Shown in pieces: positions 18,535-44,717 of a DNA stretch of 64,000 bases (position 1 is the stretch's first letter; each line of letters begins with the position of its first letter). The notes below the pieces were generated by a model. That model was not told the DNA's origin. It was given only the letters and a program-made list of their open reading frames with translations, and did no database searches. The stretch is from the IMG/VR virus record IMGVR_UViG_3300028840_002691, positions 32,001 through 96,000 of that record. One strand, 5' to 3'. Source of the stretch: a virus. The position numbers and the translations under genes were made by a program.

Positions 18535-18858
18535 ATGGCTGTAACAGCAGTTTGCAACGCTAACGTTATTCACGTTACAAATCTCAATGCGGATTGGGCC
18601 TGGTCTACGACCTTGCCAGCGAGAGGCAGTGGAATACGGGTAGAGAGCATACAGTTTAACCCGACTGCCGCCTCTGATAGGTGTGTTATGCTGGATGGGG
18701 CCAGTGGTACCACCATAATGGATGTCACCTGCGCTGATACAACCGATTCCAGGGTGAAGTATTTCTATGGGCAGAAGTTGAGGCCTGTTTTTGACTTCTC
18801 GCAGAGCGTTATCAGTGGCACTTCCACCGACGGTCACATTATCATCATGACGAGGTAA
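18535..18858 (+). CDS. Small putative virion (head decoration) protein
   Basis: AGGAG RBS. Beta-rich and located in the head module. Confidence 0.55.
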   Translation: MAVTAVCNANVIHVTNLNADWAWSTTLPARGSGIRVESIQFNPTAASDRCVMLDGASGTTIMDVTCADTTDSRVKYFYGQKLRPVFDFSQSVISGTSTDGHIIIMTR

Positions 18859-18888
18859 GGCAGCTGGTGATTCTGTTGAAAGGGCTAA

Positions 18889-19947
18889 ATGGCAAAGACA
18901 GCGAATGAGATCTTTAGGGACTGGCTCTTACGTCACTCACACTACTTGGGCAGGGTTGAAAATGGGGCAATCCGCGAGATGGTTGCTCCGTACCAGCGAG
19001 CGAGGCAGGAGATATATGACAGGCTGGCAGATCAAGCAAAATGGACAGGCAGGACACGAGAATGGAGAATAGCACGGCTCAATGCTCAGCTTGCGGAGGT
19101 GGAGGGTGCTCTGCAGGCTGCGGCGCTGGACTCGGCTGGCTCACTGCAGCAGACTCTGAGGGAGCTGGCCTATACGGAGGCCGACCTGCAGGCTGCGATG
19201 CTTGCTGGGCCATTTGGACGGGTGGGGGTGGATATCGTCAGCCTGCCCTATGCGCAAATAGAGCAGATACTGGACGAACCGTTGATATACCAATACAGGG
19301 GCATGACTCCAGCAGACAGTATGCTCTGGGGCAACAAGAAGGCTGTTGACGCTATGAGGCAGGAGCTGACACAGGCTGTTATTTCTGGGGAGGATATGGC
19401 TAGGGCTTCTAAAAGACTTGTGAACCCACTGACTGCAACTATGAAAGGTGTTGCCTACGAACAAATAGCACGGAGGGCGACGATAATAGCACGCTCTGAG
19501 ATAATGCACGTGAGTAACTCGGTGTCCAGAAGGGTCTTTAACGAGAACCAGGACGTCATGAAGGGCTGCATGTACACAGCCACTCTTGACAGGAGGACTT
19601 GTTTGATCTGCGCTTCTGACGATGGTCGGTTCTTTCCATACAAGGACGGCATCGATCACGAAGGTCCACTTTTGCCTAGGCATCCGCTGTGTCGGTGCTG
19701 TTACAGCCCCGTGACTAAATCCTGGACTGAACTCGGCGCAGACGCTAAAACTCAGACAGGCAAGGATTACTTCTCAGGCAAGAGGCCAGAGGTGATCACC
19801 TACAGTGACTGGCTGAAGAAGCAGCCTGATGATGTGCTGAAGGAGATACTTGGGCCTGCAAGAATGAAGCTCTGGAAGGAAGGCAAGATCACTCTTTCCA
19901 AGATGGCTACTGACAAGAAAGTGATTGCTGTAAAGGATTTGAAATAA
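18889..19947 (+). CDS. Minor head morphogenesis protein (SPP1 gp7/Mu gpF family)
   Basis: IARSE, ATLDRRTCLICASDDG, PRHPLCRC, TYSDWLKKQ, ILGPAR. Confidence 0.9.
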   Translation: MAKTANEIFRDWLLRHSHYLGRVENGAIREMVAPYQRARQEIYDRLADQAKWTGRTREWRIARLNAQLAEVEGALQAAALDSAGSLQQTLRELAYTEADLQAAMLAGPFGRVGVDIVSLPYAQIEQILDEPLIYQYRGMTPADSMLWGNKKAVDAMRQELTQAVISGEDMARASKRLVNPLTATMKGVAYEQIARRATIIARSEIMHVSNSVSRRVFNENQDVMKGCMYTATLDRRTCLICASDDGRFFPYKDGIDHEGPLLPRHPLCRCCYSPVTKSWTELGADAKTQTGKDYFSGKRPEVITYSDWLKKQPDDVLKEILGPARMKLWKEGKITLSKMATDKKVIAVKDLK

Positions 19948-19979
19948 TGCCAGTCCACACAGGAAAAGACAACAATTAA

Positions 19980-20885
19980 ATGATTAAAAAGAAAAAATAT
20001 CGTAAACTCAAAATGAGACTTTGCCAATGTGGATGCGGCCAAGCTTGCTATAATAGATTTGTCAAAGGTCATGCAAATAAAGGTAAAAAATTTTCCAAGC
20101 TACATAAAGATAGAATAGCTATCTCTCATAAGAAAAGATCCAAAGAAACAAGTAGACGTGTAAAAGCTCAATGGGAGGATGATAATTATAGAAGTAGAAT
20201 TTGTAAATCTATGAGTATTTATGCTCAAAATAGATCTAATCACCATAAATTTAATTTACAAAAATCTATTTCGACAGAGGAATGTAAAAATAAACAATCT
20301 ATTGAGGCTAAAAGACGGTGGAAAGATCCTGATTATCGGAATAGAGTGTCTTTAGGGGTATCACAATCTGTTAAAAAAAATTGGGATGATAATCCTGACA
20401 GGAAAATTAAAACTAGCAGAAGGATGAAAGAACTGTGGGCTGATCCAGATAGTATTTATAATTCAGATTGGTTTCATAATATGAATTCTAAGAAAGTAAC
20501 TAATTTGTATATTGAAGGTAAACTTTGCAAAGTTGGCAAAGGTAAATCAGGCTATTTCTTTTCCAAAAAGAACAATAAAAAACTTTGGTATAGATCTTCT
20601 TACGAATTAATAGCTTATGAATTGTTAGAACAATTATCTAAAGTGAAAAGTTATGAAGTAGAACCATTTAGTATTCAATATGAATGGAAAAATTCAATCC
20701 ATAGAACTATACCAGATATTTTGGTTACTTATATTGATAATAGTAAGGAATTAATTGAAGTTAAACCACGTTTTAAATTTGATATTAAGAAAGAACAGAT
20801 TAAATTAAATGCTATGAAAGAATATGCAGAAAATCAAGATTGGTCTTTTTCTATATGGTCTGAAAAGGAATTAGATGCCGGTTGA
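19980..20885 (+). CDS. Free-standing homing-type endonuclease (CxCGCG + NUMOD-like repeats + TnsA-like PD-(D/E)xK domain)
   Basis: CQCGCG, YRSSYE, YEVEPF...IPDILV...LIEVKP. Markedly AT-rich compared with its flanks. Confidence 0.8.
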   Translation: MIKKKKYRKLKMRLCQCGCGQACYNRFVKGHANKGKKFSKLHKDRIAISHKKRSKETSRRVKAQWEDDNYRSRICKSMSIYAQNRSNHHKFNLQKSISTEECKNKQSIEAKRRWKDPDYRNRVSLGVSQSVKKNWDDNPDRKIKTSRRMKELWADPDSIYNSDWFHNMNSKKVTNLYIEGKLCKVGKGKSGYFFSKKNNKKLWYRSSYELIAYELLEQLSKVKSYEVEPFSIQYEWKNSIHRTIPDILVTYIDNSKELIEVKPRFKFDIKKEQIKLNAMKEYAENQDWSFSIWSEKELDAG

Positions 20886-21819: not shown

Positions 21820-21824
21820 GGGGA

Positions 21825-23225: not shown

Positions 23226-23276
23226 ACCACACTGGATAGATACTCTCTTAATAGGGGATACTATCTCTGTTATTCG

Positions 23277-23969
23277 GTATCGTGGTTTAAGTGATTCTAT
23301 TCTAGGAGGTTGAAAGAAACGACTATGTCAGGAAACAACAGACATCTCAGAGGAGATGTAAACGCTATCAAGATGCCCGTCCACGGCGCTACGGTTGTGG
23401 AGCCTGGGGATTTGCTGGTCTACGGTGGCGATACAAACATCTGGACCGCTCACAGCGACTCCAGGGCCGACTACTATGCGTATCCGGTCAGCGGCATCAC
23501 CGGCTCAGCTGGTATGGGCGGCACGGGAACGCTTTGCATCGCTAAGAACCATTTCTGCGGCATTGCCCTGTCAGGTTCGAAGAGTGGCACCACAGAGGAC
23601 ATCACGGTGGCTCTTACGGGTACGTTCCGCTATCCGCTGCGCAACATACCAGGCAAGGACGGCTCCAAGACCTGCGGCACCACAGTGGGGCTGAAGGTAT
23701 CGATGGTGACTCCGGCCTCCGTCACGGTGGCTGGGCCTTCGGACCAGGCTGTGTGCATCGCTACTCACAGCGGCACCAGTGCCTACATCGGCTACTGCAT
23801 TATGAACAGCAGCGGCGGTGGCACAAAGGGTGGTACCAGCTATGTGGACTTCGTGCTGAAGAGCAAGTGGGGTCTTGGGCTGGCTACCTAAGCAGTGAAG
23901 AATAGGTACTTAATAGGAGATGCTTTTTCTATTCAAGTATCGTGGTTTAAGTGATTCTATTCTAGGAGG
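23277..23969 (+). repeat. Duplicated 33-bp leader/RBS (23277-23309, 23937-23969)
   Basis: GTATCGTGGTTTAAGTGATTCTATTCTAGGAGG is identical in both copies, with further similarity upstream. Confidence 0.9.
23325..23891 (+). CDS. Capsid decoration/cement-like protein, paralog 1
   Basis: Lies between the scaffold and MCP genes. Motifs VEPGDL, FCGIAL, VALTGTFRYPL. Confidence 0.65.
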   Translation: MSGNNRHLRGDVNAIKMPVHGATVVEPGDLLVYGGDTNIWTAHSDSRADYYAYPVSGITGSAGMGGTGTLCIAKNHFCGIALSGSKSGTTEDITVALTGTFRYPLRNIPGKDGSKTCGTTVGLKVSMVTPASVTVAGPSDQAVCIATHSGTSAYIGYCIMNSSGGGTKGGTSYVDFVLKSKWGLGLAT

Positions 23970-23977
23970 AAAAGAAA

Positions 23978-24565
23978 ATGTCAGGAAACAACCGATATCT
24001 CAAAGGAGATATCAATTCAATTAAGCTACCAGTCCACGGAGCCACTGTGGTGGAACCTGGTGACTTGCTTATATTGGGAGCTACTACGGAGACCCAACAG
24101 CACCGTAAAGCAGAGGGTGTGGCTGATTACTATGCGTATCCGTTCAGCGGTGTCACCCGTGAAACTGGTGAGGGAGTCATCCGACTCTGTAAGAACTGGT
24201 TCATCGGTGTGGCGATGAGCGGCTCGGCAAGTGGCACTACCAATGAGGTTACAGTGGCCACTTCGGGCATGTTCCGCTATCCGCTGCGTAACATTACTGC
24301 CAAAGAGGGTGCTTTGACCTGCGGCACAACGGTTGGCTACATAGTCAGTGCTGCTACGCCTACGGCTTCCACAACGAGTGGCTGTTCGGCGCAGGCGGTA
24401 ATGATCCAAGGCCATGGCGGGGCGTCGGCTGCTGTTGATGGTGGTTCTACTGCCTTCTTAGGCTACTGTGTGATCACCAAGCCAGCAGGCACCAAGACTG
24501 GCGGCGCAAGCTATGTGGACTTCACTATCAGGACCAAGTACGGGCCTGGAGGACTGGTAACGTAA
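23978..24565 (+). CDS. Capsid decoration/cement-like protein, paralog 2
   Basis: Closely similar to 23325-23891. Confidence 0.65.
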   Translation: MSGNNRYLKGDINSIKLPVHGATVVEPGDLLILGATTETQQHRKAEGVADYYAYPFSGVTRETGEGVIRLCKNWFIGVAMSGSASGTTNEVTVATSGMFRYPLRNITAKEGALTCGTTVGYIVSAATPTASTTSGCSAQAVMIQGHGGASAAVDGGSTAFLGYCVITKPAGTKTGGASYVDFTIRTKYGPGGLVT

Positions 24566-24569
24566 GAAG

Positions 24570-25088
24570 ATGGCTAATGTTCAACGCTGGGACCACGGAG
24601 CAAAGCATGTAATTCACGTCACTGTGAAAAGTGGCACCACCGTGGAGACGGGGGACTTGATGTTCCTGGATGACACTGACGGTCTGCGTGAGGAGGGCGC
24701 TTCCACAGCAGACTTCAGCGCTTACCCTATGGAGCACCTGAGGCCGTCGGCAACTCTCAGCACAAACAAAGGCTACCTGGAAACGCGCTTTCTGGGTGTG
24801 GCATTGACCGACAAAGACGGTGGCACCAACAAGCCGCAGGAGGCAATGGCTATCGCCACGGGAGGTATTTTTGAGTTTGACCTCAAGCCAGCAAGAACTG
24901 TGAAGGTGGGTTACTATGCTGGGCCGTCGGGTACGACGAGCGGGTCAAACATGTTCAACCAGAAGATGATGGTTGAAGCAGAAGCAAATAAAGCCCACTG
25001 TTATGGATATTTCGTTGAGTACAAGACCCATGCCCAATCGGCTTTGGTCGAAATAAAAACGCAACATGGGGATGGGATGATATCGTAA
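24570..25088 (+). CDS. Capsid decoration/cement-like protein, paralog 3
   Basis: VETGDL, AYP, FLGVAL and IATGGIFEF match paralogs 1 and 2. Confidence 0.6.
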   Translation: MANVQRWDHGAKHVIHVTVKSGTTVETGDLMFLDDTDGLREEGASTADFSAYPMEHLRPSATLSTNKGYLETRFLGVALTDKDGGTNKPQEAMAIATGGIFEFDLKPARTVKVGYYAGPSGTTSGSNMFNQKMMVEAEANKAHCYGYFVEYKTHAQSALVEIKTQHGDGMIS

Positions 25089-25106
25089 CAAGGAGGGTAT
25101 AGAACA

Positions 25107-26183
25107 ATGGCACTAAATCCTACAGGTTCTCCGATCAAGGAGCTTGTGGAATCGAAAGGGGCGCAAGGTGCTCAGGAAGTGATCCGCGAGGGTCTGAAGC
25201 AGAAGAAGTTCCAGCCGGAGCACTTCTCACTTCAAGAGATCTGGGAAGCCACCTGCGGGCCTGTGAGTCAAATACAGGAGCAAGTGGTTGCGGACTCCTT
25301 TCCGAAGATCACCGGAGAGCTTATCAACGCAAAGATCATCGCTGGCTACGACAGCGTGGCGATGATTGGCGACCAGCTCTGCACCACGGTTCCAAGCAAG
25401 CTGAAGACCGAGACCGTAGCAGGCTTTACGGATGCTGAGGTTCCGGACTTCATTCCTGAAGCCGGAGAGTACAACGACTCCACAGTGACAGAGAAATACG
25501 TCACCATGCGCAATAAAAAGTATGGGAAGTTGATCTCCATCACCGAGGAGATGATCCTCTTCGATCAGTCTGGTCAGGTGATGACCAGAGCGCAGAGGAT
25601 CGGCGAGAAGGCAGCGCAGTACAGAGAGAAGACCATAGTGGAGGGCGTTCAGGACATCAACAGCTCAGTCTGGAACCCATCCGGCGTGGCTACGGCTTTC
25701 TACAGCGCCACCAACGGCAACCTCGCCACCAGCAACGCTTTCAATGAAGGCGGGCTGGAAGCCGTGCGCAAGCTGATGCAGCAGATGAAGGACGACTCCG
25801 AGCACAGCGACAGCAACGACTACATCCTCATCAACGAGGCCAACATGATCCTGTTGGTTCCTGTGGATCTGGAGCTTGAGGCGTGGCAGATGGTTAACTC
25901 TACTCTGACGCCCGAGTCGGCTGAGAATGCGTCCAACTTTTTCCGTGGGCGGTATCGGGTGCTGACCAGTCCTTACGTCACAAACCAAAGCGCCACCACG
26001 TGGTTCCTGGGCGACTTTAGGCAGGACTTCTGGTGGAGCGAGGTATGGCCGCTGCAGACATTTTCACGCGCGGCTGGCAACAGCGACGAGTTCAAGCGAG
26101 ACATCAAGAGCATGCACAAGGTCCGCTACTATGGCACGATCGGTGCCGTGGACGTAAGGCATAGCTTCAAATCTACTGCTTAA
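25107..26183 (+). CDS. Major capsid protein (Mu gpT-like, HK97 fold)
   Basis: 358 aa. Motifs KYGKLISITEEMILFD, LLVPVDLE, VLTSPY...TTWFLGD. Position after the protease gene. Confidence 0.88.
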   Translation: MALNPTGSPIKELVESKGAQGAQEVIREGLKQKKFQPEHFSLQEIWEATCGPVSQIQEQVVADSFPKITGELINAKIIAGYDSVAMIGDQLCTTVPSKLKTETVAGFTDAEVPDFIPEAGEYNDSTVTEKYVTMRNKKYGKLISITEEMILFDQSGQVMTRAQRIGEKAAQYREKTIVEGVQDINSSVWNPSGVATAFYSATNGNLATSNAFNEGGLEAVRKLMQQMKDDSEHSDSNDYILINEANMILLVPVDLELEAWQMVNSTLTPESAENASNFFRGRYRVLTSPYVTNQSATTWFLGDFRQDFWWSEVWPLQTFSRAAGNSDEFKRDIKSMHKVRYYGTIGAVDVRHSFKSTA

Positions 26184-26220
26184 TCTCGTGTAGCTGTGTG
26201 TTACACGTAGGCAAGAGAGA

Positions 26221-26290: not shown

Positions 26291-26334
26291 ACAGCAATTA
26301 GAAGAAGACAACATAGCACGAGGAGGACTATATT

Positions 26335-26847
26335 ATGGCTAGACGAGGACCAGGACGAGGATCTCGCATGGGCAAGGGTGTGCTTTCGGGCAGCACTCTG
26401 GCTGTGCACCCGTCCGGCGTAACGATAGACAAACAGGGTATCGAGTATACTGCTGGTGTTGTTGTAACTCCAACTGAACTTGGTTACTTGGATGGGCAGG
26501 CGGGGTATGGGCTTGCTTATACTTCAGCAGCAGGGTACAGAATTGCCTATGGACTGACGGACTTCGCAGGCAGCGGCAAGCCTCTTGAAGGCACCCTGTC
26601 CGTGAGCAACGTGCTGTCCGTAGACACAGGGCTGACAACGGTGTTGGGTTTTTGGCCTAGCATTTATGATGCCACTTCTGACATGCACAAGCTGTCGGCA
26701 AGTGCATTTCTGACCTGGCAGAAGAACCTGACCACGACTTCAGAGGTGACGGTGATCTCTTTGATTGATGCTGGTGCGGCAGGCACAACGCCGTACTTCT
26801 TGTTCAATAAGGGAGTTTCCTGTTCGTGGATCGCTTTCGGCACATAA
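26335..26847 (+). CDS. Putative virion protein, paralog A
   Basis: Strong RBS. Arg/Gly-rich N-terminus, VDTGLTTV, C-terminal SWIAFGT. Confidence 0.7.
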   Translation: MARRGPGRGSRMGKGVLSGSTLAVHPSGVTIDKQGIEYTAGVVVTPTELGYLDGQAGYGLAYTSAAGYRIAYGLTDFAGSGKPLEGTLSVSNVLSVDTGLTTVLGFWPSIYDATSDMHKLSASAFLTWQKNLTTTSEVTVISLIDAGAAGTTPYFLFNKGVSCSWIAFGT

Positions 26848-26865
26848 TACAAGGAGGACTACATT

Positions 26866-27393: not shown

Positions 27394-27401
27394 ACCACAG
27401 C

Positions 27402-27439
27402 GCAGAGAACCACAGTCTGTGCACACTGTGGTTCTCTGC
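27402..27439 (+). terminator. Perfect 15-bp hairpin
   Basis: GCAGAGAACCACAGT, 8-nt loop, ACTGTGGTTCTCTGC. Followed by AT-rich sequence. Confidence 0.65.
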
Positions 27440-32672: not shown

Positions 32673-32702
32673 ACAGACTGTATGTAGAGGGGGGATGTAG
32701 AG

Positions 32703-34133: not shown

Positions 34134-34139
34134 TAGACT

Positions 34140-37100: not shown

Positions 37101-37301
37101 GAGTCGGTGGGGGGTAGAGAGGGCATAAGGGCTTTGAACCAGGGCACGGTGGCTCCTACCTCAATACAGATGCAGAGTATGCCAATACGGGTTTCTGTAG
37201 AATTGGATGGCGATGTGATAGGGGAGAAACTGGTGGATGCGGCCAGGGACGGACGCTGGAAGTACGGCAGCGTCAGACGACGAGGTGTGGTGAGCTTATG
37301 A
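34140..37301 (+). CDS. Tail tape measure protein
   Basis: 1053 aa, helical and Ala-rich. LKVRIGADV N-terminus, Gly-rich hydrophobic region, YQSGGYVP...ILHPSEGVL. Confidence 0.9.
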   Translation: MATEDLKVRIGADVRGFNAALAQVQNKTKAFATGASRSFDSLKNSVLSVKTAVIALAGAYATVKVAQQIKESALLAARYETLGIVMETVGKNVGYTADEMHRFAKGVEAQGITMNASRLIVTRLAQAQLDLSQSTRLARIAQDAAVIGMINSTEAFERMIHGIISGNVLILRNIGIQVQFEEAYKKGAKALGKTTEELTAVEKTQLRMNEVMKAGENIAGTYVNAMETVGKKWTSFVRYVENFWTKFGSIFNESFGLIVDTATLFMKNLNKSIDDMGKSGELEKWAHRTTLAILSFVQESIKALKFLGDAIVSLIFSWSKWVEFVNKGAAITLRAYASITEAYAKLVKLIAYATGNMTLLGHAQDALVGVEKIRSWADTYEGIGELYAKQAEDAWAAYGDIINALDSAEDKVKELYKEASDRAWLNKQSAAWEAYSSVVENTVKKIENEVNKIDPLFDPVERAKQWKDLIERMKQMAQAEAPSLGIVTEEEAKKELELNEKLIKERLEAQKEANDKLLKEQEHFYERMHDATADWTYEILDGQIRSWGDAWSKIMDIVKHAIAEMVAYAIARPIVVPIVASMMGAAGLGGLVPSGVGGAVQTAGLLGTAGKYISKVPGMSWLAGGLGGVSQFLSSPILTTSVAPGLAGAAAPGIAGWGAASWGSVLGAGGLGYLGADLLFGGKGQSALGGGLGAALGMFSPLGPLGAVIGGLGGGFLGSLFGAEKPHKFRAQYGFDPLGNITGSTWGRGSYPSLYTGVQQQLQATYGGQMQQVQSYIDVIRQMSGRRGGAGVDLPSIILRTRDFENAGKQAVEKMGKAMEKYMVDVAKDMGFATVEAFVEYAQKMEERAQASAALIGSAFADIVETGDWGSFIRQMKNSLYTNVKEAVIASFMESAAFRTALAPFYQALERGLGGKKFSEQRFWRYMTPALEDLDKMLGTLQPMFNQVNQLLIGVSQAMPYQSGGYVPSKRFAILHPSEGVLNKMATESVGGREGIRALNQGTVAPTSIQMQSMPIRVSVELDGDVIGEKLVDAARDGRWKYGSVRRRGVVSL

Positions 37302-39037
37302 CCAACTGCATATTCATGTACAACAACCTGATTGATGATTCTGGTGCCTCGATTACTCCTAGCAGTGCAGTAAGCACCTTCCCTATTGGCAATTTACAGA
37401 ATCCTTTCCGCACGAAGGTAGCTAGGGTTTCTGGAGTGGCTGAGTGGTACGGCACCAATCTTGTAGCTGATGGTGGTATGGAAGAGCTTGGTGGATGGGA
37501 CCAATATGGCACTCCGGCAAATGAACAGAGAACAGCTACTGAGTATTATGAGGGCAGTTACAGTTGGTACTTTGAGTCCAATGGAGCCAATGACGGGGTG
37601 AGCAACGTTACAGCTTGGACACAAACTACTGGGAAAACTTATCTTTGTAGTGGTTATGTTCTTCCGGATAGTGGTACTACGGTAAATGTGAAAGTTTTGC
37701 GTGGTGATGGCGCAGCAGCAGCGTACGATGTCCAACACACGGACTTAACGCAGAGTGCTTGGAACCACATTGAGTTTGTTTATACAGATATCAGTGGTGG
37801 GGCTGCTGCCGAGATAGCTTTCTATGACGGCGACGGAGACACTGGCGACTGGTACGTGGACAAGGTTCAAGTATTTGAAGGGTTGGTTACTAATGGTGGC
37901 TTTGAGATCGGTGGTACGGGGGATAACTTTAATGGCGGTGCCGAGGTGGACGATGGCACTAGTGACACTTTTACTGGTTGGACGAATGTTAGCGTCAATG
38001 ATGGTGCTGGGGACAAGATTGAGGCAACTGCCACAAAAAAGACACAAAGTTACGCTGTGAAATTGACAAGAACAACGCAGACAACTTATATGTATCAGTA
38101 TATATCTGTAACAGCAGGAAGGGTTTACAAGTTGTCATTCTGGGCTCGCGGTGATGGGGCAAATGCTGGCGAATATAGGCTGTACGATGTCCAAAATGCA
38201 GCTTGGATAATCTCTACTACTTCTACGGGAGTTTCTGGAGCTACTTATACAGAGGTGACTGTAGTATTTACAGTTCCTTCTGGATGCACTCAGGTTAGTA
38301 TCCATTTGCGTTCGACTTCTGTTGCTGGGACAGCTTACTTTGACTGCGTTCACGTGCAGGAGGTTATTACAGGGTATATAACATTTGATTTAGGCTCGCA
38401 TGGGTTGACAGACATCGATTGTGTTGCCTTAGCAAATTATAGTTGGGGCAGTAATCCTGGACGCGTGACTCTTGAACATAATACGTCTGCACAGAATACT
38501 TCTTGGTGCAATCCGGAAACAACTGCTGATCTCACTTGGGCGCTACGGCCAACAGCCAACGGCAACGAGGCTTGTATAGTTAGTCAATTCACTGATACTA
38601 GTGATCAGTATTTCCGTCTGGTTTTTAGTGATGGTGCAAGTACTTCGGTCTACAATTCAGATATCGGTAGGATTTATATAGGACCAAGTTTTACTCCTAC
38701 ACTCGACTATGAGCATAGTGGTTATGAGCTGGACTTCAATGACCCATCTATGCTCAGCCAGACACCAGACGGTCAAAAACACCTTGATGAGCTTACAGCT
38801 TACAGGTATGTCAAGTTCAACTTCAAAGTCACCACGCAAGCGCAACTGGAGTCGTTCCAGAAGATGTGGAACGAAGTGCGAATGCGCAAGAACCTCTTCG
38901 TTGCTTTCGACTACGACAACGAGGCCAATGAGATGACTATTTACGGGATGTTTGTTACTCCGATGCGCACTTTTCACTCAGATCCAGAATGGCCTGATTT
39001 GAGAAGGGTTTACTTAGAATTTGAGGAGGCTCGATAA
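37298..39037 (+). CDS. Distal tail-like protein with two inserted carbohydrate-binding modules
   Basis: Follows the TMP gene. CBM-like starts LVADGGME and LVTNGGFE, with YKLSFWAR and AYFDCV. Dit-like C-terminus IGRIYIG. Confidence 0.65.
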   Translation: MTNCIFMYNNLIDDSGASITPSSAVSTFPIGNLQNPFRTKVARVSGVAEWYGTNLVADGGMEELGGWDQYGTPANEQRTATEYYEGSYSWYFESNGANDGVSNVTAWTQTTGKTYLCSGYVLPDSGTTVNVKVLRGDGAAAAYDVQHTDLTQSAWNHIEFVYTDISGGAAAEIAFYDGDGDTGDWYVDKVQVFEGLVTNGGFEIGGTGDNFNGGAEVDDGTSDTFTGWTNVSVNDGAGDKIEATATKKTQSYAVKLTRTTQTTYMYQYISVTAGRVYKLSFWARGDGANAGEYRLYDVQNAAWIISTTSTGVSGATYTEVTVVFTVPSGCTQVSIHLRSTSVAGTAYFDCVHVQEVITGYITFDLGSHGLTDIDCVALANYSWGSNPGRVTLEHNTSAQNTSWCNPETTADLTWALRPTANGNEACIVSQFTDTSDQYFRLVFSDGASTSVYNSDIGRIYIGPSFTPTLDYEHSGYELDFNDPSMLSQTPDGQKHLDELTAYRYVKFNFKVTTQAQLESFQKMWNEVRMRKNLFVAFDYDNEANEMTIYGMFVTPMRTFHSDPEWPDLRRVYLEFEEAR

Positions 39038-41007
39038 TGGCAGACGCCTACATATATGGGGCTATAGAGTTTACGGGTGGCGGTCGCAGCTCACTGGACA
39101 ATATAGACGGTAATGACTTGCAAGAGAATGATGCTGCATTCGTAATAAAAGACGGCTTCTTTTATGCATATAGACTCAATGCTTCCTCAGCGGCTTCTGA
39201 AAGTGTACCTCATGTAATTTCACCAGATGTAAATGCTGGGGATAAGCGTTGGGAACTGCAGTCGGGGAATCTCGCTTACCTGATTGATCCGACAGAATCT
39301 GACCAGGGAGCAGCAGGCAACGGACGCACATTGAAGGACATTGCTAATTCTGTTGGCACTTCGAAGCATGTGGAAGTTTGGTTCACGAATGTGGGTGGGG
39401 CAACAGGTAATACTACACCATACTATCTCGATACGTCTTTAGACCTCTCATCGTATACCAATATGCATTTCCGTTTCATGTCTGGGGCTTACTTGGACCA
39501 GGTGACAGGGGATGAGGTTTTAACTGTTCCTTCCCCACAGCACATTATAGCCCTACCTGTTACAAAAATTGCAGACGGCAATATGCTCGCCTTTGCTGCC
39601 GGTGGTACTGCTTACCCTGAATGGCTAGGTGTCGACAGTACCAGTGGTGAAACAGCAATTAACGCAATAATAGCAAGGCTCTTTGCTGCTGGTGGTGGAA
39701 TTTGCCACCTCCAACCGAAGACCTACACTATAGACGGGAAGATCATCGTATACGAAGACGTAATTCTACAGGGAGTGTTGAACAACTACGGTGGAGCAGC
39801 ACATATAACAGGCACAATGATAACCCTCGCAGACTCATCAGACTGCGACATGGTGCAGACAACCCTATCTGCTGCGACCTACCATAATGGTGGCATCAGG
39901 CAGGTAGCATTTGATGGTAACTCGGCAAACCAGGCAAGTGGTAAAGGGCTTGTTGATGACGCAAAGAACGTGGTCTTTGAGGATGTGTTTGTAGTTGACT
40001 GTAAGGAGGAAGGCATAAATGAGTCTGGTGGATTTGCCAGCTTCACCAGGGTGCACTCCATAAACAACACAGAGGAGAACATTTCTATTGGTGGTGCTGA
40101 TTGTAACTTTACTGACTGTGAGTTTCAAAATCCAGACATAGGAGATTCTGGAACCTATGCTAATATTTATCTCAACGGCACTCATAACAGGTTCTTAAAT
40201 TGCAGGATTGGATCAAGCAATTCTACAAGTACGCATGGGGTACACATTCAGGCTGCAGCTTATTATAATGATTTTACGGGTTGTGAGTTTAGGTTCTCTG
40301 AAGAATGGGGTATTAAAGATGAGGGCGGGGCAACTTCTATTACTGGATGCACATTCCAAAATAATAAAAGTGGAGGAATACAGGTTCTTGCCAACAGTGT
40401 GTCAATTACAGGTGGTGAGATCAGGTGTGATAGTGCCACTAAAGCCACTGTAGAACTTGGGTCGGCTGGCACACAGGTAGATTATATAAACATCGTCGGT
40501 GTTGCAGAACTAAACGGATATGTCCAGTGTGTTAATGTTGGAAGCCATATTGTCATTCAAACAGACAAAACCAACAATACTCTTGAGATTGATAATTCAA
40601 ATGTTGCCACATCGGGGTTGGGAGAGGACACACTACAGGCCAAGGGTATCGAAGCAAAGTATATGGGTGATACTTCCGGCATTCGCATAACTGCCGCAGG
40701 AACCATATCTGGTGCAAACGATACCAAGACAATTAGGCTCTATTTTGGCGCTACAAGCGTTACGGTAATATCAGCAGCTGCGGGAGATGAGACAGATTGG
40801 AGAATAGTTGCGGATATTTGGAATACAGCCACTAATGCACAGAGATGGTCGTGGACGGGTGTAGAATCTGACGGCACAATCACATCCGGTTATGATACTT
40901 CAGCCATAGATACTACCGCCGCTGTTACGTTAAAACTTTCTGGGGAGTGCGCTAATGTTAATGATACAATCACGCAAACAATGTGGGTAGTAGAATCTAT
41001 TAGATAA
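39037..41007 (+). CDS. Tailspike / depolymerase-like beta-helix protein
   Basis: PEWLGV...TAINAII...GGGICHL (pectate-lyase-3-like start), FDGNSANQ, repeated FTGCEF rungs. Confidence 0.7.
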   Translation: MADAYIYGAIEFTGGGRSSLDNIDGNDLQENDAAFVIKDGFFYAYRLNASSAASESVPHVISPDVNAGDKRWELQSGNLAYLIDPTESDQGAAGNGRTLKDIANSVGTSKHVEVWFTNVGGATGNTTPYYLDTSLDLSSYTNMHFRFMSGAYLDQVTGDEVLTVPSPQHIIALPVTKIADGNMLAFAAGGTAYPEWLGVDSTSGETAINAIIARLFAAGGGICHLQPKTYTIDGKIIVYEDVILQGVLNNYGGAAHITGTMITLADSSDCDMVQTTLSAATYHNGGIRQVAFDGNSANQASGKGLVDDAKNVVFEDVFVVDCKEEGINESGGFASFTRVHSINNTEENISIGGADCNFTDCEFQNPDIGDSGTYANIYLNGTHNRFLNCRIGSSNSTSTHGVHIQAAAYYNDFTGCEFRFSEEWGIKDEGGATSITGCTFQNNKSGGIQVLANSVSITGGEIRCDSATKATVELGSAGTQVDYINIVGVAELNGYVQCVNVGSHIVIQTDKTNNTLEIDNSNVATSGLGEDTLQAKGIEAKYMGDTSGIRITAAGTISGANDTKTIRLYFGATSVTVISAAAGDETDWRIVADIWNTATNAQRWSWTGVESDGTITSGYDTSAIDTTAAVTLKLSGECANVNDTITQTMWVVESIR

Positions 41008-41028
41008 AAGTGTAAAAGAAAAGAAGGA

Positions 41029-43020
41029 ATGGCGGCATATTTCAAATATACATCAGGAACGTTCTTCAGAGACACTGCAGGAGTGGCTTGGAGCCACAGG
41101 TGGGATCCTACGAGCTACTTTACTGATTTCAAAGACGAGGTAACTAGCGAAAAGGTATTTCTGGCCGAGATACAAGTGGCTGAGAAGGTCACTGGCTGGA
41201 CACAGTACCCAGCGTCTTCTGCTTACTACAAGAGCTACCTGAATGAAACCATCACACTGGCCGACGAGAACAGCTCCACAGAAACCGTAAGAAAAGAAGT
41301 AGTGGCTGTTGAAGAGGACGGTACTGCATTGACAGAAAAAAGCAGCGTGGCGAATGTTGTAGCCAACGCAGGCAGTTTCTACCACGACACTGACGCTGGT
41401 ACCTTGTACGTGCATACCTCTGGCAGCGATACTCCTGATGACCACACGATAATTGCGTACTTCTGGTTGTACTTCGGCACAAAGGGCATAGAGCTGAACG
41501 GCAAGTTTTACGAGCCCTACATCCACGAACGTGGTATTCCAACCCTGAAGCAGCGCAACGCCAACATCCACTGGGGCATATCAGAGATCAGTAGCGGCAA
41601 CCTGGTGCTCATAAACAACCGTGGGTACTTTGATCAGATTTCTAGGAAATTCATTTGGCGCAACAAGAAAGTCAAGCTGCTTCTGGGTGGTAATGATTTA
41701 GCCTACGGAGAGTACGAGACTCTATTCACTGGGATCATAGTGGATAAGGTATTTACCCGCAGGGAAGTCACCTTGAGGCTGAAATCTACTGCTTTTAGGC
41801 TGTTGGAAAGTATACCTACAACCTTTTTCGACACGACCACTTATCCAAATATGGACCCGAACAAAGCTGGTTGGGCCATGCCCATCTACTACGGCAACTA
41901 CGACTCCAGGATAAGCCCCATCGTCACCTGCGTAGACAACCCAGGAGTGAATCAGTACATTTTTAGGGTGGCAGTGCATTCACTGAAGTCGATAAGTGGT
42001 GCGTCGATTTCTTACAGTGGCAGCTCAACTTTTAATACTATCGCTATGGACAGCTACAGCGAGTCCGACGCCACGGTGCAGTTGACTGCTGCTGGCTATG
42101 TGAATGGTTACTCAAAGGTCAGGGTGGCTTTCGAGGGCAAGGCAGACGCCTCAGGCAACCTGATAGAGAGCGGAGTTAGCATTGTTGAGGATTTGCTCAC
42201 TAGTTATTGTGGCTACTCTTCGGCAGATATAGATGCTACTTCCTCCACTTGCTCAGCTGCCATAGCCGAGTTCAACCTCAATGTACCAATAGAAGCAGAA
42301 GTACAGGCACTGGCAGTGATAGAGAGGGTTTGTGTCAGCGAGCTGGCTTACTTCGACGAGGATGGTGATGGTCAGTTGCGGTACAGGGTGTGGGAGCCTA
42401 CGATAACTCCCAGCGCCCCGAAAGTTGACGATATTGATTTTCTGGAGCCTACTCCAGTGATCCAGGATGACAGCGAGTGGCTGTTCTACAAAGTGCGGAT
42501 AGGACACTCATACAGGTGCTGGTCTGGTGGCTGGATCTACGATGACTACTACAACGCTGACAGCCAGTACAAGTACGGCATAGACGACGAGCTGACGGTG
42601 AACACATATCTCAGGAGCAGTAACGACGGAGACACCCTGGCAAGAAGAATGACTATTCTCACCAGAGACCCTTCGCCTATTTTAACAGGTCGGTTCAAAA
42701 CTCCTATCATAAACAGACTGCTTGGAGATAAATTACAAATCACTTTGGACAGGGCTCCGTACGAGACCGCCGGGGGCTATGATGATAGGGTGTTTGAGAT
42801 CTTCGGCTCCGAGCTGTCCTTCTTCCCACTGGAGCACAAGATACAGGCCCGAGACCTAGTGGACTATGGCAAGGGACAGGGCTTCTGGATGGCTACAGGT
42901 TCGCCTACTTACGGTGCTTGCACCCAGCAGCAAAGGGACAACAGTGGCTTCTGGTGCGACACTAGTGGCTATGCAGAAACTGCAGACAAAGACTCACTGG
43001 ACAAATCACGGTGGTGGTAA
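41029..43020 (+). CDS. Tail tip / baseplate hub protein
   Basis: MPIYYG, DGDGQLRY, GDKLQIT, plus synteny. Confidence 0.6.
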   Translation: MAAYFKYTSGTFFRDTAGVAWSHRWDPTSYFTDFKDEVTSEKVFLAEIQVAEKVTGWTQYPASSAYYKSYLNETITLADENSSTETVRKEVVAVEEDGTALTEKSSVANVVANAGSFYHDTDAGTLYVHTSGSDTPDDHTIIAYFWLYFGTKGIELNGKFYEPYIHERGIPTLKQRNANIHWGISEISSGNLVLINNRGYFDQISRKFIWRNKKVKLLLGGNDLAYGEYETLFTGIIVDKVFTRREVTLRLKSTAFRLLESIPTTFFDTTTYPNMDPNKAGWAMPIYYGNYDSRISPIVTCVDNPGVNQYIFRVAVHSLKSISGASISYSGSSTFNTIAMDSYSESDATVQLTAAGYVNGYSKVRVAFEGKADASGNLIESGVSIVEDLLTSYCGYSSADIDATSSTCSAAIAEFNLNVPIEAEVQALAVIERVCVSELAYFDEDGDGQLRYRVWEPTITPSAPKVDDIDFLEPTPVIQDDSEWLFYKVRIGHSYRCWSGGWIYDDYYNADSQYKYGIDDELTVNTYLRSSNDGDTLARRMTILTRDPSPILTGRFKTPIINRLLGDKLQITLDRAPYETAGGYDDRVFEIFGSELSFFPLEHKIQARDLVDYGKGQGFWMATGSPTYGACTQQQRDNSGFWCDTSGYAETADKDSLDKSRWW

Positions 43021-43335
43021 ATGGGTAACGAGAAATTGACGCCTATAAACAAGATAAACCTGAACGGCAAGACCATAAAGAAGGTTTTCTTTGCCCACAT
43101 TTCTGGTGGCGACAAGATGTACATCGTATTCACAGATGCCACCGTTCTGGTGATGCCAGTGCACAGAACGTGCCCTGTGCAGGCTGGCAGGTTTGAAGAC
43201 TTCCTGGAAGACCGTGAAGAGGTGGTCAACCAGATGAGAGTGGAGATGCAGGTGTTCTGCACCGAGCATCAAAAGATTATAGATTTCTTGACAAAGGAAG
43301 TGGACAATGGCTTGGACGGCAAGCAATCTGGTTAG
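43021..43335 (+). CDS. Hypothetical protein
   Basis: Contiguous ORF within the tail operon. Confidence 0.6.
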   Translation: MGNEKLTPINKINLNGKTIKKVFFAHISGGDKMYIVFTDATVLVMPVHRTCPVQAGRFEDFLEDREEVVNQMRVEMQVFCTEHQKIIDFLTKEVDNGLDGKQSG

Positions 43336-44005
43336 CGTCAGCGATGCCACAGAGAAGGACCACTACGACAAGCTCTGGGACAATGCCGATTACCTGAAAG
43401 ATGCCCGTGACGACACCGACGAGGACTCTTACGCTGCCTTTGTGGCTGACGATCACTACAAAGTGCAGATAAACAGCAAGGACGCGGCGTGCTTTAAAAC
43501 CACAGGAGTCTCTCTTGGCTGGCACATAAACTCGGCAGACTTGTTTGATCTCTCACAGTACGGCATGACGCTTCATACCACCACTAAGGTCTACTCACAC
43601 CTGACTCCGGACACTCCACAGGCCATCGCCAGTGACGAATGGACGCTGGTGCAGTTCAACTCTGAAGCCAGTGGGTATGATAACTTGAGCGAGTACAACA
43701 CAGGCACTTACACCTGGACCTGTTCTGAGGCTGGCTACTACCTGTTTACGTCTTATCTGGGGATAAAGGACGCAGACGATGCCATTGGCTATGGGGTGGC
43801 TTTCAAGAACAGCGCAGTGACAAAGGCAGCAGCAATGCAGGTCTCTGGAGCTACAGACTCAAGGATAGCCGTTGGGGTGAATTGCATTCTGTCTGTGGCT
43901 GCAGGGGTAACAATACAGACTTACTGTTACTGTGGTGGCACTGGAGACAAGAACATCCTCTCCGGAGTGACGGAAACTTACTTTATGGTACACAGGTTAT
44001 CTTGA
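43307..44005 (+). CDS. C1q-like domain tail/receptor-binding protein, paralog 1
   Basis: MAWT start, VQFNSE...YNTGTYTWTCSEAGYYLF, C-terminal FMVHRLS. Confidence 0.6.
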   Translation: MAWTASNLVSVSDATEKDHYDKLWDNADYLKDARDDTDEDSYAAFVADDHYKVQINSKDAACFKTTGVSLGWHINSADLFDLSQYGMTLHTTTKVYSHLTPDTPQAIASDEWTLVQFNSEASGYDNLSEYNTGTYTWTCSEAGYYLFTSYLGIKDADDAIGYGVAFKNSAVTKAAAMQVSGATDSRIAVGVNCILSVAAGVTIQTYCYCGGTGDKNILSGVTETYFMVHRLS

Positions 44006-44006
44006 C

Positions 44007-44717
44007 ATGGCTTGGACTACAGCAAACCCAGTGAGCATAGGCGCTCCGACCAGGAAGTCTCAGTACGACAAGCTCTGGGACAATGTTCAGTACCTGAAGG
44101 ACGTTAGGGACGATAGCGATGATGATTCCTACGTGTCCTTCCCTAATGATGATCAGAGGAAACTGCTGATAGCTTCCACGGATGATTGGTGCTTCACTAC
44201 TACTGGTGTTTCTTTAGGATACCAACTGCCTGCACCAGACGCCACTGTGTTCAGTTTGTCTCAGTATGGGATGACTTTGAGGACCAGCAGGATAAGTGCT
44301 TATGACACGGCAGATTACCCTGGTGGAGCATCTTTCATTGAGGTTGATTTTGACAGTGAACATTTCGATACTCTTAGTGAGTATGATACTACACCTTGCG
44401 AGTTCACTTCTAGTGAGGCTGGGTATTATCTTTGTATTTGTCAGAACACTTTGAGGGGCTATGAAGCAGTGGACGGTCTCAAGATTGCTTCTTGTATTTA
44501 TAGGGGGCTTCCGCATCACGAAGCGTATTATACTAATGTGTGCTCAATTGGAGCTACTGGGGTTACTTGTTCAGTGTCTGTTATGGCGGTCATTTATTTG
44601 TCTGCTGCTTCTGCAGATTGGTGCGGAGGTGTGTCACATTCAGCAGGAATGGGTGTAAGCTTGGATTTTGTTGGTCAGGATGAGTGGAGTTTTTTTCAGA
44701 TGCATAGACTTTCCTAA
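44007..44717 (+). CDS. C1q-like domain tail/receptor-binding protein, paralog 2
   Basis: Similar to paralog 1. FTSSEAGYYL, FQMHRLS. Confidence 0.6.
   Translation: MAWTTANPVSIGAPTRKSQYDKLWDNVQYLKDVRDDSDDDSYVSFPNDDQRKLLIASTDDWCFTTTGVSLGYQLPAPDATVFSLSQYGMTLRTSRISAYDTADYPGGASFIEVDFDSEHFDTLSEYDTTPCEFTSSEAGYYLCICQNTLRGYEAVDGLKIASCIYRGLPHHEAYYTNVCSIGATGVTCSVSVMAVIYLSAASADWCGGVSHSAGMGVSLDFVGQDEWSFFQMHRLS

What the first reader, a model, noticed from the sequence alone, without database searches (positions are those of the whole stretch)
18535..44717. Candidate phage-encoded virion glycosylation system: an S-G-x-(T/S) motif across outer virion proteins plus an O-oligosaccharyltransferase-like gene inside the structural operon
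Seen: by hand count about 35 strict S-G-x-[T/S] tetrapeptides (SGTT, SGVT, SGAT, SGTS, SGST, SGVS...) occur, plus many relaxed [A/G/T]-G-x-[T/S]. They fall in many mutually unrelated outer structural proteins: 18535 (2), decoration paralogs (3, 3, 2), 26335/26866 (2, 3), adaptor (1), stopper (2), terminator (2), tail tubes (3, 2), Dit (4), hub (3) and a C1q-like protein (2). I found none in terL, portal, protease/scaffold, MCP, the 1053-aa tape measure or the DnaB-like helicase. In the middle of these genes sits a WaaL/PglL-family (Wzy_C) protein with a TPR-like tail (27489-29573). The genome also has a sugar-tailoring cluster (877-5094). Established: PglL-type enzymes transfer lipid-linked glycans to Ser/Thr, and some mycobacteriophages glycosylate their virions. 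Inference: the motif is an acceptor sequon for a virion-wide glycan coat. Caveat: Wzy_C enzymes face the periplasm while virions assemble in the cytoplasm, so transfer would need membrane-associated assembly or post-holin access, or a different transferase outside this window uses the motif.
Basis: partly seen in the sequence, partly recalled or inferred. Interest (0 to 1): 0.9.

Follow-up and report, generated by a model that had tools for sequence, protein, structure and literature searches.

The report
Sugar-attachment motif coating phage virion proteins
An uncultured 105-kb phage and its relatives carry the four-residue motif Ser-Gly-(Val/Thr/Ala)-(Thr/Ser) about ten times too often, only on outward-facing particle proteins, together with a membrane sugar-transferase gene among the particle genes and a large phage sugar-synthesis cluster, so the motif is probably where the phage sugar-coats its own particle, though no chemistry shows this yet.

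Summary
S-G-x-[ST] occurs 36 times in the virion gene block, against 8.6±3.0 in per-protein shuffles. SGxT ranks first of 8,000 tested patterns (p=5e-10).

- **Refined motif:** S-G-[VTA]-[TS], with 25 observed against 2.2 expected. It is not a DNA word.
- **Lineage-wide:** about 27 related metagenomic loci show it (480 against 105).
- **Where it falls:** only in decoration, post-capsid, head-closure, terminator-like, tail-tube and distal-tail proteins. Portal, MuF, MCP, chaperones and tape measure are at chance.
- **Controls:** three unrelated phages and 13 MCP relatives without the Wzy_C gene show no enrichment.
- **The enzyme:** 27489-29573 has a WaaL-like fold, an intact catalytic loop and a true TPR domain. 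It is a fixed member of the head-tail module.
- **Glycan genes:** the phage also carries about 29 kb of nonulosonate and sulfated-glycan genes.

The reading as a virion glycosylation sequon is well supported. It remains unproven that the Wzy_C-TPR protein is the transferase. The acceptor proteins have no export signals, and the phage encodes no flippase or initiating transferase.

The parts
877..5094 (+). Last part of a glycan gene cluster of about 29 kb (epimerase/dehydratase, two methyltransferases, GFO/IDH/MocA oxidoreductase, metallophosphoesterase-like). The rest lies upstream of the window at genome 8.4-32 kb.
   Evidence: Pfam. The upstream part has 2 NeuB, 2 CMP-sugar cytidylyltransferases, 3 sulfotransferases, DegT and class III aminotransferases, WbqC, PIG-L, a PseG-like GT28, GT2 and GT4, plus a 524-aa GT-B-like protein.
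18535..18858 (+). Small protein of unknown role (107 aa) with 2 motifs.
   Evidence: The only homologue found is in L007.
23310..25088 (+). Three paralogous decoration-like proteins (23310-23891, 23978-24565, 24570-25088) with 3, 3 and 2 motifs.
   Evidence: Weak Phage_cement_2 hit. The families are 6.3-9.8x enriched across 8-19 orthologues each. One site is conserved in 22 of 24 sequences.
25107..26183 (+). Major capsid protein, motif-free. Included as the internal contrast.
   Evidence: Phage_capsid_4, E=1e-28. 0 motifs here and 0.9x across 22 orthologues.
26335..27393 (+). Two paralogous small post-capsid proteins (26335-26847, 26866-27393). This family has the highest motif density (2 and 3 here, 3.6-4 per orthologue).
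   Evidence: Two sites are conserved in 14-15 of 16 sequences. No family match.
27402..27439 (+). Perfect hairpin with a 15-bp stem, directly after the stop codon of the 26866 gene and before the Wzy_C gene. Possibly an attenuator or an mRNA-stabilising element.
   Evidence: free energy -32.7 kcal/mol, z-score -2.9.
27489..29573 (+). Membrane protein of 694 aa: 13 TM helices, a WaaL-like fold with the catalytic loop at 282-372, then a TPR domain (504-650) and a phage-specific C-terminal extension.
   Evidence: PF04932, E=1e-14. AF2 pLDDT 84. Best fold match is WaaL 7TPG, plus TPR domains. TPR by HMM, E=1e-5. R315, R340, H371-N-D, E376 and E380 are invariant. Same slot in all long related loci.
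30020..30831 (+). Connector proteins: 30020-30421 (1 motif; family at chance, 1.4x) and 30421-30831, head closure Hc1 (2 motifs; family 5.6x).
   Evidence: PHROG 161.
31310..31801 (+). The family is 13.7x enriched.
32046..33308 (+). Two paralogous tail tube proteins with 3 and 2 motifs. The families are 8.6-11.2x enriched.
   Evidence: AF2 model plus Foldseek hits to the T5, YSD1 and lambda tubes. Motifs lie at residues 18-21 (hairpin turn), 94-97 (loop after helix 85-93) and 135-138 (loop). Conserved sites are visible in alignment A2.
37298..44005 (+). Distal tail proteins: 37298-39037 (4 motifs), 39037-41007 (1), 41029-43020 (3) and 43307-44005 (2).
   Evidence: PHROG hits are only to families of unknown function or tail families. 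The labels Dit, hub and C1q-like were not verified.

Best explanation
S-G-[V/T/A]-[T/S] is an acceptor sequon for phage-directed O-glycosylation of the outward-facing virion proteins: decoration proteins, small post-capsid proteins, head closure, tail tube and distal tail. The glycan would be made by the phage's own gene cluster of about 29 kb and would probably contain a nonulosonic acid, possibly sulfated or methylated.

The most likely transferase is the Wzy_C-TPR membrane protein encoded inside the head-tail module. In this model its TPR domain holds the acceptor protein, and its WaaL-type loop (R315, R340, H371) moves a lipid-linked glycan onto the hydroxyl residue. That residue is probably position 4 of the motif.

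Shown: the motif statistics, its specificity, its distribution, its co-occurrence with the gene, the fold of the enzyme and the glycan genes. Inferred: that any glycan is attached, which enzyme does it, which residue accepts it, and how cytoplasmic virion proteins meet an enzyme whose relatives act in the periplasm.

My probabilities are about 0.6 that the motif is a glycosylation sequon and about 0.35-0.4 that Wzy_C-TPR is the enzyme. The confidence given for this explanation is for the sequon claim.
For: - **Enrichment.** 36 against 8.6±3.0; SGxT is first of 8000 patterns; the strict motif is 25 against 2.2 in the block and 0 against 0.8 elsewhere in the window.
- **Specificity over 509 instances.** S1 is 4.6x (no other residue above 2x; D 1.5x and N 0.9x, so it is not a generic beta-turn). 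G2 is 4.6x. Position 3 is V 19x, T 12x, A 9x, with charged and bulky residues depleted. Position 4 is T 5.9x and S 3.4x.
- **Protein-level selection.** 24 distinct 12-mers in 25 instances.
- **Lineage-wide.** 480 against 105 in about 27 loci.
- **Split by protein family.** The decoration, 26335/26866, 30421, 31310 and tube families are 5.6-13.7x. MCP, portal, MuF, the 21825 family, 30020, 30816, Wzy_C itself and the tail chaperone 33346 are at or below about 1.4x, except for small-number values (portal 2 vs 0.7; 20875 and 33864 with one motif each).
- **Site behaviour.** Conserved sites plus turnover. In decayed sites, position 4 keeps T/S in 44 of 52 variants.
- **Structure.** Motifs lie in turns and loops of the tube model.
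- **Controls.** RcKemmy, lambda and Shewanella 1/44 are at chance. The 13 Wzy_C-negative MCP relatives have 22 against 21.4, while Wzy_C-positive L081 has 29 against 2.1 strict motifs.
- **The Wzy_C-TPR protein.** Fixed slot in the module at 27-49% identity; WaaL fold and TPR; intact catalytic residues; catalytic loop and TPR on the same membrane side.
- **Glycan genes.**. NeuB is also present in 3 of 4 related phage records.
- **Precedents.** O-OTases are usually encoded beside their substrates, and PglS glycosylates the fourth residue of S-G-A-S in ComP. Mycobacteriophage capsid and tube C-termini carry glycans (cited in PMC12619734). The tube here has a conserved C-terminal F-T-S-G-x-[TS] site.
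Against: - There are no chemical data.
- Motif-bearing proteins have no signal peptides, whereas Wzy_C enzymes act on the periplasmic face.
- The phage has no flippase, PglC-type initiating transferase or Maf.
- Pfam found no PglL_A or Wzy_C_2 domain.
- Positive and negative loci are separate clades, so the co-occurrence may be a single historical event.
- The phage also has soluble GT2, GT4 and GT-B enzymes that could glycosylate proteins directly.
- Only one motif-bearing protein was modelled, at pLDDT 74.
Confidence: 0.55

Rival explanations
1. The motif is a glycosylation sequon, but it is read in the cytoplasm by one of the phage's soluble glycosyltransferases (GT2, GT4 or the 524-aa GT-B/LIC12162-like protein). 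This would be lipid-independent, like flagellin or mycobacteriophage virion glycosylation. The Wzy_C-TPR protein would do something else late in infection, for example attach the phage glycan to a host envelope component to mask receptors on lysed-cell debris.
For: - The acceptors lack export signals.
- Soluble GTs are present.
- There is no phage flippase or initiating transferase.
- The known phage virion glycosylation uses phage glycosyltransferases.
- Cytoplasmic O-glycosylation of flagellin with nonulosonic acids is established.
Against: - The Wzy_C-TPR gene holds a fixed place between head and connector genes across the whole lineage. That is not the place of known envelope-modifying phage genes.
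- A TPR domain on the catalytic side suggests a protein acceptor.
- No Maf-type enzyme is present.
- No integrase is present, so lysogenic conversion is unlikely.
Confidence: 0.2
2. The motif is a recognition site for something other than a glycan: another modification (the phage encodes three sulfotransferases and several methyltransferases), or a docking peptide for an assembly factor such as the TPR domain itself acting as a membrane-bound chaperone.
For: - The motif's sharp specificity and its restriction to a subset of virion proteins show a common reader, not its chemistry.
- TPR domains bind short peptides.
- Sulfotransferases are present.
Against: - The enzyme keeps every catalytic residue of Wzy_C transferases.
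- The sulfotransferases sit inside the sugar cluster, and carbohydrate sulfation is the simpler reading of them.
- Motif sites turn over like sequons, unlike a fixed docking site.
Confidence: 0.1
3. The motif has no reader. It is a structural preference (a Ser-Gly turn followed by a Thr-rich strand) that spread in the beta-rich surface proteins of this one clade by descent and drift.
For: - Motifs sit at turns and strand starts.
- Position +5 is often hydrophobic.
- Lambda structural proteins show a mild 2x excess of the loose pattern.
- The co-occurrence rests on one clade.
Against: - About ten unrelated protein families acquired the motif, while homologous decoration proteins in Wzy_C-negative relatives have 0-1.
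- The classic turn dipeptides D-G and N-G are not enriched, and position 3 is strongly restricted.
- The strict motif is at chance in three control phages.
- Beta-rich but internal or covered proteins (MCP, the tail-completion protein 30816) lack it.
Confidence: 0.1

Closest known systems
Protein O-oligosaccharyltransferases of the Wzy_C superfamily (PglS-ComP of Acinetobacter, PglL of Neisseria, TfpO/PilO of Pseudomonas)
   Same: - Wzy_C domain with a conserved His/Arg loop.
- The enzyme gene lies beside its presumed substrates.
- The PglS minimal sequon IASGAS*AATTN contains S-G-A-S with the fourth residue glycosylated (PMC8457361; PMC12645811).
   Different: - The known acceptors are exported pilins or periplasmic proteins. 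Here they are phage structural proteins without export signals.
- No PglL_A or Wzy_C_2 domain was detected.
- The protein has a C-terminal TPR domain.
- The tetrapeptide sequon is spread over about ten protein families.
- The gene is phage-encoded.
WaaL O-antigen ligase (Cupriavidus metallidurans, PDB 7TPG)
   Same: It is the best structural match of the membrane domain (Foldseek E=1e-4, TM-score 0.59 on the target). The catalytic loop residues are conserved.
   Different: WaaL has 12 TM helices, no TPR domain and lipid A-core as its acceptor. Identity is 13%. E. coli WaaL obeys the positive-inside rule and the phage family does not.
Virion glycosylation of mycobacteriophages (Freeman et al. 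2023, as summarised in PMC12619734; the paper itself is not held)
   Same: Phage-encoded glycosylation of capsid-associated and tail tube proteins. The glycans sit at C-termini, and the tube family here has a conserved motif in its C-terminal tail.
   Different: That system uses soluble glycosyltransferases. To my knowledge it has no membrane Wzy_C enzyme, no reported short sequon shared by many virion proteins, and no nonulosonate cluster.
Seroconversion Wzy/ligase genes of temperate phages (Pseudomonas phage D3 Wzy-beta, phi297, Variovorax phage VarioGold VG_p25; PMC9658991)
   Same: A phage-borne polytopic membrane protein of the Wzy_C family.
   Different: Those are moron-like genes of about 400 aa near the integrase or lysis genes. 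They are oriented against the late genes, are thought to be expressed in lysogeny, and have no TPR. Here the gene is co-oriented inside the head-tail operon, is conserved across the lineage, is 694 aa with a TPR, and the genome has no integrase.
Bacterial Wzy_C-TPR proteins of unknown function (Bacteroidota, Lentisphaerota, Acidobacteriota, Myxococcota)
   Same: Same architecture. The nearest atlas clusters are of this type. There are 5022 profile relatives. The TPR-proximal residues A514, P519, [YF]-D-G 551-553 and W558 are shared.
   Different: The cellular-like forms are 500-620 aa and lack the phage family's 85-residue C-terminal extension and its invariant M554, P556, K647, P653 and W656. 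The 46-residue basic loop at 133-178 is shorter in them.

Membership tests
Wzy_C superfamily (PF04932; WaaL, Wzy, PglL, PilO) | Pfam Wzy_C domain above the gathering score | tested here: met
   54.9 bits against a cut-off of 31.7, E=1.1e-14, residues 207-390. 59.4 bits in the six-frame search.
Wzy_C superfamily (PF04932; WaaL, Wzy, PglL, PilO) | Polytopic membrane fold like WaaL, with a large loop carrying conserved Arg and His | tested here: met
   The AF2 model has 13 TM helices. The top PDB hit is 7TPG. R315, R340 and H371 are invariant in 30 phage homologues, and H371 is present in 36 of 36 cellular-like relatives.
Protein O-oligosaccharyltransferase (PglL/PglS class) | Accessory PglL_A or Wzy_C_2 domains that separate O-OTases from WaaL | tested here: not met
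   Pfam scan at E<=0.01 returned Wzy_C only. These domains are also absent from the known TfpO and TfpM O-OTases (PMC12645811).
Protein O-oligosaccharyltransferase (PglL/PglS class) | Acceptor proteins are exported to the periplasm | tested here: not met
   No motif-bearing protein has a signal-like N-terminus (maximum 12-residue hydropathy 1.6 or less).
Protein O-oligosaccharyltransferase (PglL/PglS class) | Enzyme encoded next to its substrate genes | tested here: met
   The gene lies directly after the most motif-dense proteins (26335/26866) and among the other motif-bearing genes in all long related loci.
Protein O-oligosaccharyltransferase (PglL/PglS class) | Transfer of a lipid-linked glycan to Ser/Thr of a protein | not testable with these tools
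   This needs biochemistry. The phage lacks its own flippase and PglC-type initiating transferase. Host genes are unknown.
WaaL O-antigen ligase | Ligates O-antigen to lipid A-core; 12 TM helices without an extra soluble domain | tested here: not met
   It has 13 TM helices plus a 190-residue TPR domain on the catalytic side. The acceptor itself is not testable.
Phage seroconversion Wzy (D3 type) | Moron-like gene of a temperate phage, outside the late operon, near the integrase | tested here: not met
   The gene is co-oriented inside the head-tail module, at a conserved place. There is no Phage_integrase match in the 93%-complete genome. Comparison from PMC9658991.
Phage virion glycosylation (mycobacteriophage type) | Phage-encoded glycosyltransferases present | tested here: met
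   GT2, GT4 and a GT28-like protein, and a GT-B-like 524-aa protein.
Phage virion glycosylation (mycobacteriophage type) | Glycans demonstrated on capsid or tail proteins | not testable with these tools
   The phage is uncultured and no proteomic data are available here.
Maf-type flagellin-like nonulosonate glycosylation | Maf (MptE-like/DUF115, PF01973) transferase | tested here: not met
   No match at E<=0.1 in the genome.

The most novel reading that the evidence does not exclude
The phage Wzy_C-TPR enzyme glycosylates fully cytoplasmic, assembly-competent virion proteins in a way not known for any Wzy_C enzyme. There are two possibilities.

(a) It sits in the membrane with its catalytic loop and TPR domain facing the cytoplasm and uses the unflipped lipid-linked glycan. 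That would explain why the phage has no flippase. The catalytic side holds about 13 K/R in loops under 70 residues, against about 2.3 on the other side.

(b) It acts after holin or lysis opens the membrane. This is possible because the transfer needs no ATP.

Either way a four-residue O-sequon would direct a virion-wide coat of a sulfated nonulosonate glycan.
Probability: 0.12. Interest if true: 0.95.

Novelty: new variant of a known kind. Interest (0 to 1): 0.8.

Why it matters
Phage virion glycosylation is known only from mycobacteriophages, and bacterial O-glycosylation mostly lacks short sequons. Here a simple tetrapeptide marks, across a whole phage lineage, exactly the proteins that face outward. 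It travels with an O-oligosaccharyltransferase-like enzyme and a large glycan factory.

If this is confirmed, it would:
- give a defined, portable O-glycosylation tag and a new enzyme class;
- show that environmental phages invest about a quarter of their genome in coating themselves, for shielding from defence, grazing or adsorption to debris;
- raise a sharp topological question about how cytoplasmic proteins meet a Wzy_C enzyme.

All of this is directly testable by co-expressing two or three genes.

Tried and rejected
- **Generic beta-turn signature: rejected.** D-G and N-G are not enriched, and position 3 is restricted.
- **DNA word or restriction-type motif: rejected.** There are 24 distinct 12-mers in 25 instances, and the reverse-strand frames are at background.
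- **Artefact of paralogy or post-hoc choice: rejected**.
- **Property of all phage structural proteins or of the host clade: rejected** by three control phages and 13 MCP relatives.
- **Exported virion proteins, as earlier notes reported for other phage groups: not the case here**.
- **Inverted topology from the positive-inside rule: downgraded.** It looked striking against E. coli WaaL. Cellular-like Wzy_C-TPR relatives also have the more basic catalytic side (7.5 against 5.0), so the skew is largely a family trait.
- **Searches that found nothing.** No close phage in INPHARED by DNA or by the Wzy_C protein. No PHROG match for the Wzy_C, decoration or 26335/26866 proteins. No published description of this system in the held library.
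- **Tools and papers not available.** Freeman et al. 2023 is not held.
- **Host.** Only a weak Planctomycetota lead. The same ~111-kb phage contig is binned once with a Planctomycetota MAG and once with an 'archaeon', so binning is unreliable. More distant MCP relatives are prophages in Gemmatales contigs.

Full report
**What the DNA is.** The window is bases 32001-96000 of a single 105,094-bp IMG/VR virus record. CheckV rates it 93% complete. Nearly all genes are on the + strand. It has no close relative among cultured phages, by DNA or by the Wzy_C protein. The capsid protein is 25-28% identical to those of Rhodobacter RcKemmy-type phages and Methanoculleus viruses.

The structural module runs in this order:
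- TerL (11273) and a lambda-type portal (13648);
- two exported beta-helix proteins (16119 and 17429);
- a MuF-like protein (18889) and a conserved 466-aa protein (21825);
- three decoration-like paralogues (23310, 23978, 24570);
- MCP (25107; Phage_capsid_4, E=1e-28);
- two small paralogues (26335, 26866);
- the Wzy_C protein (27489-29573);
- connector proteins (30421 is Hc1, 30816 is Neck1);
- two tail tube paralogues (fold confirmed);
- chaperones, a 1053-aa tape measure and the distal tail proteins.

Shuffling each protein gives 8.6±2.95, with a maximum of 20 in 2000 shuffles. The rest of the window has 6 against 4.3, and the genome outside the window has 13 against 5.7.

The motif was chosen by eye, so I scanned all 8000 patterns of the form a-b-x-c. 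SGxT ranks first (23 against 4.5, p=5.4e-10). It is still first with one protein per paralogue pair (p=4.7e-8). It is also first in an independent relative, L081 (p=4e-13).

The motif is not a DNA word. The 25 strict instances use 24 different 12-mers, with Ser from both codon boxes, and the reverse-strand frames are at background.

**The motif is sharply defined.** These figures come from 509 instances in the window and its relatives.

| Position | Preferred | Enrichment | Others |
|---|---|---|---|
| 1 | Ser | 4.6x | next best His 2.0x; Asp 1.5x; Asn 0.9x |
| 2 | Gly | 4.6x | Ala 1.6x |
| 3 | Val, Thr, Ala | 19x, 12x, 9x | Lys, Asp, Arg, Tyr, Gln, Leu, Met depleted |
| 4 | Thr, Ser | 5.9x, 3.4x | nothing else above 1.3x |

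The refined motif S-G-[VTA]-[TS] occurs 25 times against 2.2 expected in the virion block, and 0 against 0.8 in the rest of the window. The classic beta-turn pairs D-G and N-G are not enriched, so this is not a general turn signal.

**It is a property of a whole phage lineage and of one class of proteins.** The Wzy_C protein has about 30 metagenomic homologues at 35-49% identity. Scans with their alignment fetched 19 viral and 49 metagenome loci from sediments and groundwater.

In every long locus the gene order is the same: decoration genes, MCP, small 26335-like proteins, Wzy_C, connector, tube. Wzy_C identity falls to 27% while MCP stays at 46-60%. In about 27 non-redundant loci the motif is 3.5-8x enriched, 480 against 105 in all.

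By orthologous family the split is clean:
- **Enriched:** decoration families 6.3-9.8x, 26335/26866 6.2-7.9x, Hc1 5.6x, the 31310 family 13.7x, tubes 8.6-11.2x.
- **At chance:** MCP 0.9x, the 21825 family 0.4x, MuF 1.2x, 30020 1.4x, Neck1 (30816) 1.1x, chaperone 1.0x, Wzy_C itself 0.5x.

So the motif marks proteins expected on the outside of the particle. It avoids internal, assembly-only or covered ones.

Within families a few sites are almost universal: tube 19-20 of 24, decoration 22 of 24, 26335-type 14-15 of 16. Many others are lineage-specific. This mix of conservation and turnover is what sequons show. Where a conserved site has decayed, position 4 keeps Thr/Ser in 44 of 52 cases, while Ser1 and Gly2 are kept in 19 each. 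That is a hint that the position-4 hydroxyl is the acceptor.

**Structure.** The tail tube model (pLDDT 74, pTM 0.71) matches the T5, YSD1 and lambda tubes. Its three motifs lie in the beta1-beta2 hairpin turn (18-21), in the flexible loop directly after helix 85-93 (94-97), and in the loop before strand 141 (135-138). The family also has a conserved motif in the C-terminal tail, F-T-S-G-x-[TS].

**Controls.** Structural proteins of RcKemmy, lambda and Shewanella phage 1/44 have the strict motif 2, 1 and 1 times, against 1.5, 1.7 and 1.2 expected.

A scan of prokaryotic genomes with an MCP alignment found two kinds of relative. The first is a 111-kb relative (L081 and L082, 49% MCP identity) that has the Wzy_C gene in the same slot and 29 strict motifs against 2.1. 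The second is 13 more distant MCP relatives, including prophages inside megabase Gemmatales contigs. These have no Wzy_C gene within 10 kb and no enrichment (22 against 21.4; strict 4 against 4.5). Their decoration homologues carry 0-1 motifs.

The limit of this test is that positives and negatives are separate clades, so it counts as one evolutionary event.

**The enzyme.**
- The 694-aa protein is the only polytopic membrane protein of the genome.
- Its model (pLDDT 84, pTM 0.79) has 13 TM helices, a 91-residue loop (282-372), and a C-terminal helical-repeat domain.
- The best PDB match is WaaL 7TPG. The C-terminal domain matches genuine TPR domains (TM-score up to 0.83) and consensus TPR by sequence (E=1e-5).
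- R315, Y318, R340, H371-N-D, E376 and E380 are invariant, and H371 is universal in wider relatives.
- Four TM helices separate the catalytic loop from the TPR domain, so both lie on the same side. That fits a protein acceptor.
- The nearest clusters are bacterial Wzy_C-TPR proteins of unknown function, and the profile finds 5022 relatives.
- The phage family adds an 85-residue C-terminal extension and its own invariant residues.
- A strong hairpin lies between the preceding gene and this one.

**The glycan genes.** Outside the window, at genome 8.4-32 kb, lie:
- two NeuB synthases and two CMP-sugar cytidylyltransferases;
- SDR dehydratases/epimerases;
- DegT and class III aminotransferases;
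- WbqC, PIG-L and a PseG-like GT28;
- three sulfotransferases;
- GT2 and GT4;
- a 524-aa GT-B-like protein.

The window's 877-5094 is the end of this cluster. NeuB is also present in three of four related phage records. The phage has no PglC-type initiating transferase, no Maf, no second polytopic protein that could be a flippase, and no integrase.

**The topological problem.** None of the motif-bearing proteins has an export signal. This differs from other phage groups in earlier notes of this scan.

In the canonical orientation the phage enzyme's cytoplasmic loops hold about 2.3-2.5 K/R. The catalytic side holds about 13, including a 46-residue loop with 9-10. E. coli WaaL obeys the positive-inside rule. 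Cellular-like Wzy_C-TPR relatives show the same skew in milder form (5.0 against 7.5). So an inverted topology is only weakly suggested. Action after membrane disruption is another possibility. I could not run a proper topology predictor.

**Comparison with what is known.**
- Known O-OTases are often encoded beside their substrates, and PglS glycosylates Ser82 in IASGAS*AATTN, the fourth residue of S-G-A-S.
- Mycobacteriophages carry glycans on capsid and tube C-termini.
- Phage Wzy_C genes described so far are seroconversion morons of temperate phages, placed and oriented differently.
- I found no published account of this system.
- The scan itself noted the same motif earlier on a 112-kb relative (e1-6008712).

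**Verdict.** A virion glycosylation sequon is the best reading (about 0.6). The Wzy_C-TPR protein is the leading but unproven candidate enzyme (about 0.35-0.4).

Noticed in passing
window 5912-6946: A short (344 aa) adenylosuccinate-synthetase homologue (PF00709, E=8e-45). It is PurZ-like in size, so the phage may make 2-aminoadenine DNA.
   Followed up: partly
window 16119-17447 and 17429-18508: Two right-handed beta-helix proteins (PF13229; the second also DUF5123) lie inside the head gene block. Both have lipoprotein- or signal-like N-termini and are motif-free. They may be exported polysaccharide-active enzymes.
   Followed up: partly
window 58953-59891: A 312-aa protein with about 30 tandem hexapeptide repeats, V-[YS]-G-[DN]-A-[QWR] (left-handed beta-helix type). 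It caused the strongest pattern excesses outside the virion block.
   Followed up: partly
window 27402-27439: A perfect hairpin with a 15-bp stem (-32.7 kcal/mol) directly after the 26866 gene stop. It is followed by an AU-rich stretch and a G-rich SD-like element before the TTG start of the Wzy_C gene.
   Followed up: partly
genome 12483-16782 (L001), upstream of the window: Three sulfotransferase-domain genes sit inside the nonulosonate cluster, with DNA N6/N4-methylase-like genes interleaved (genome 15380 and 23829).
   Followed up: no
L085, L086, L088, L090, L091 (Gemmatales/Planctomycetota contigs): Distant MCP relatives (31-35% identity) are prophages inside contigs of 0.17-5.8 Mb from Planctomycetota MAGs. 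This is a weak lead to the host range of the wider group.
   Followed up: partly
window 18535-44717, motif codons: Ser1 of the strict motif uses AGY codons in 18 of 25 cases, against about 40% AGY for Ser in the same genes.
   Followed up: no
L081:17071-19884: A 937-aa protein of the 111-kb relative carries 11 motifs (10 strict) against 2.4 expected. It has no homologue in the window.
   Followed up: no
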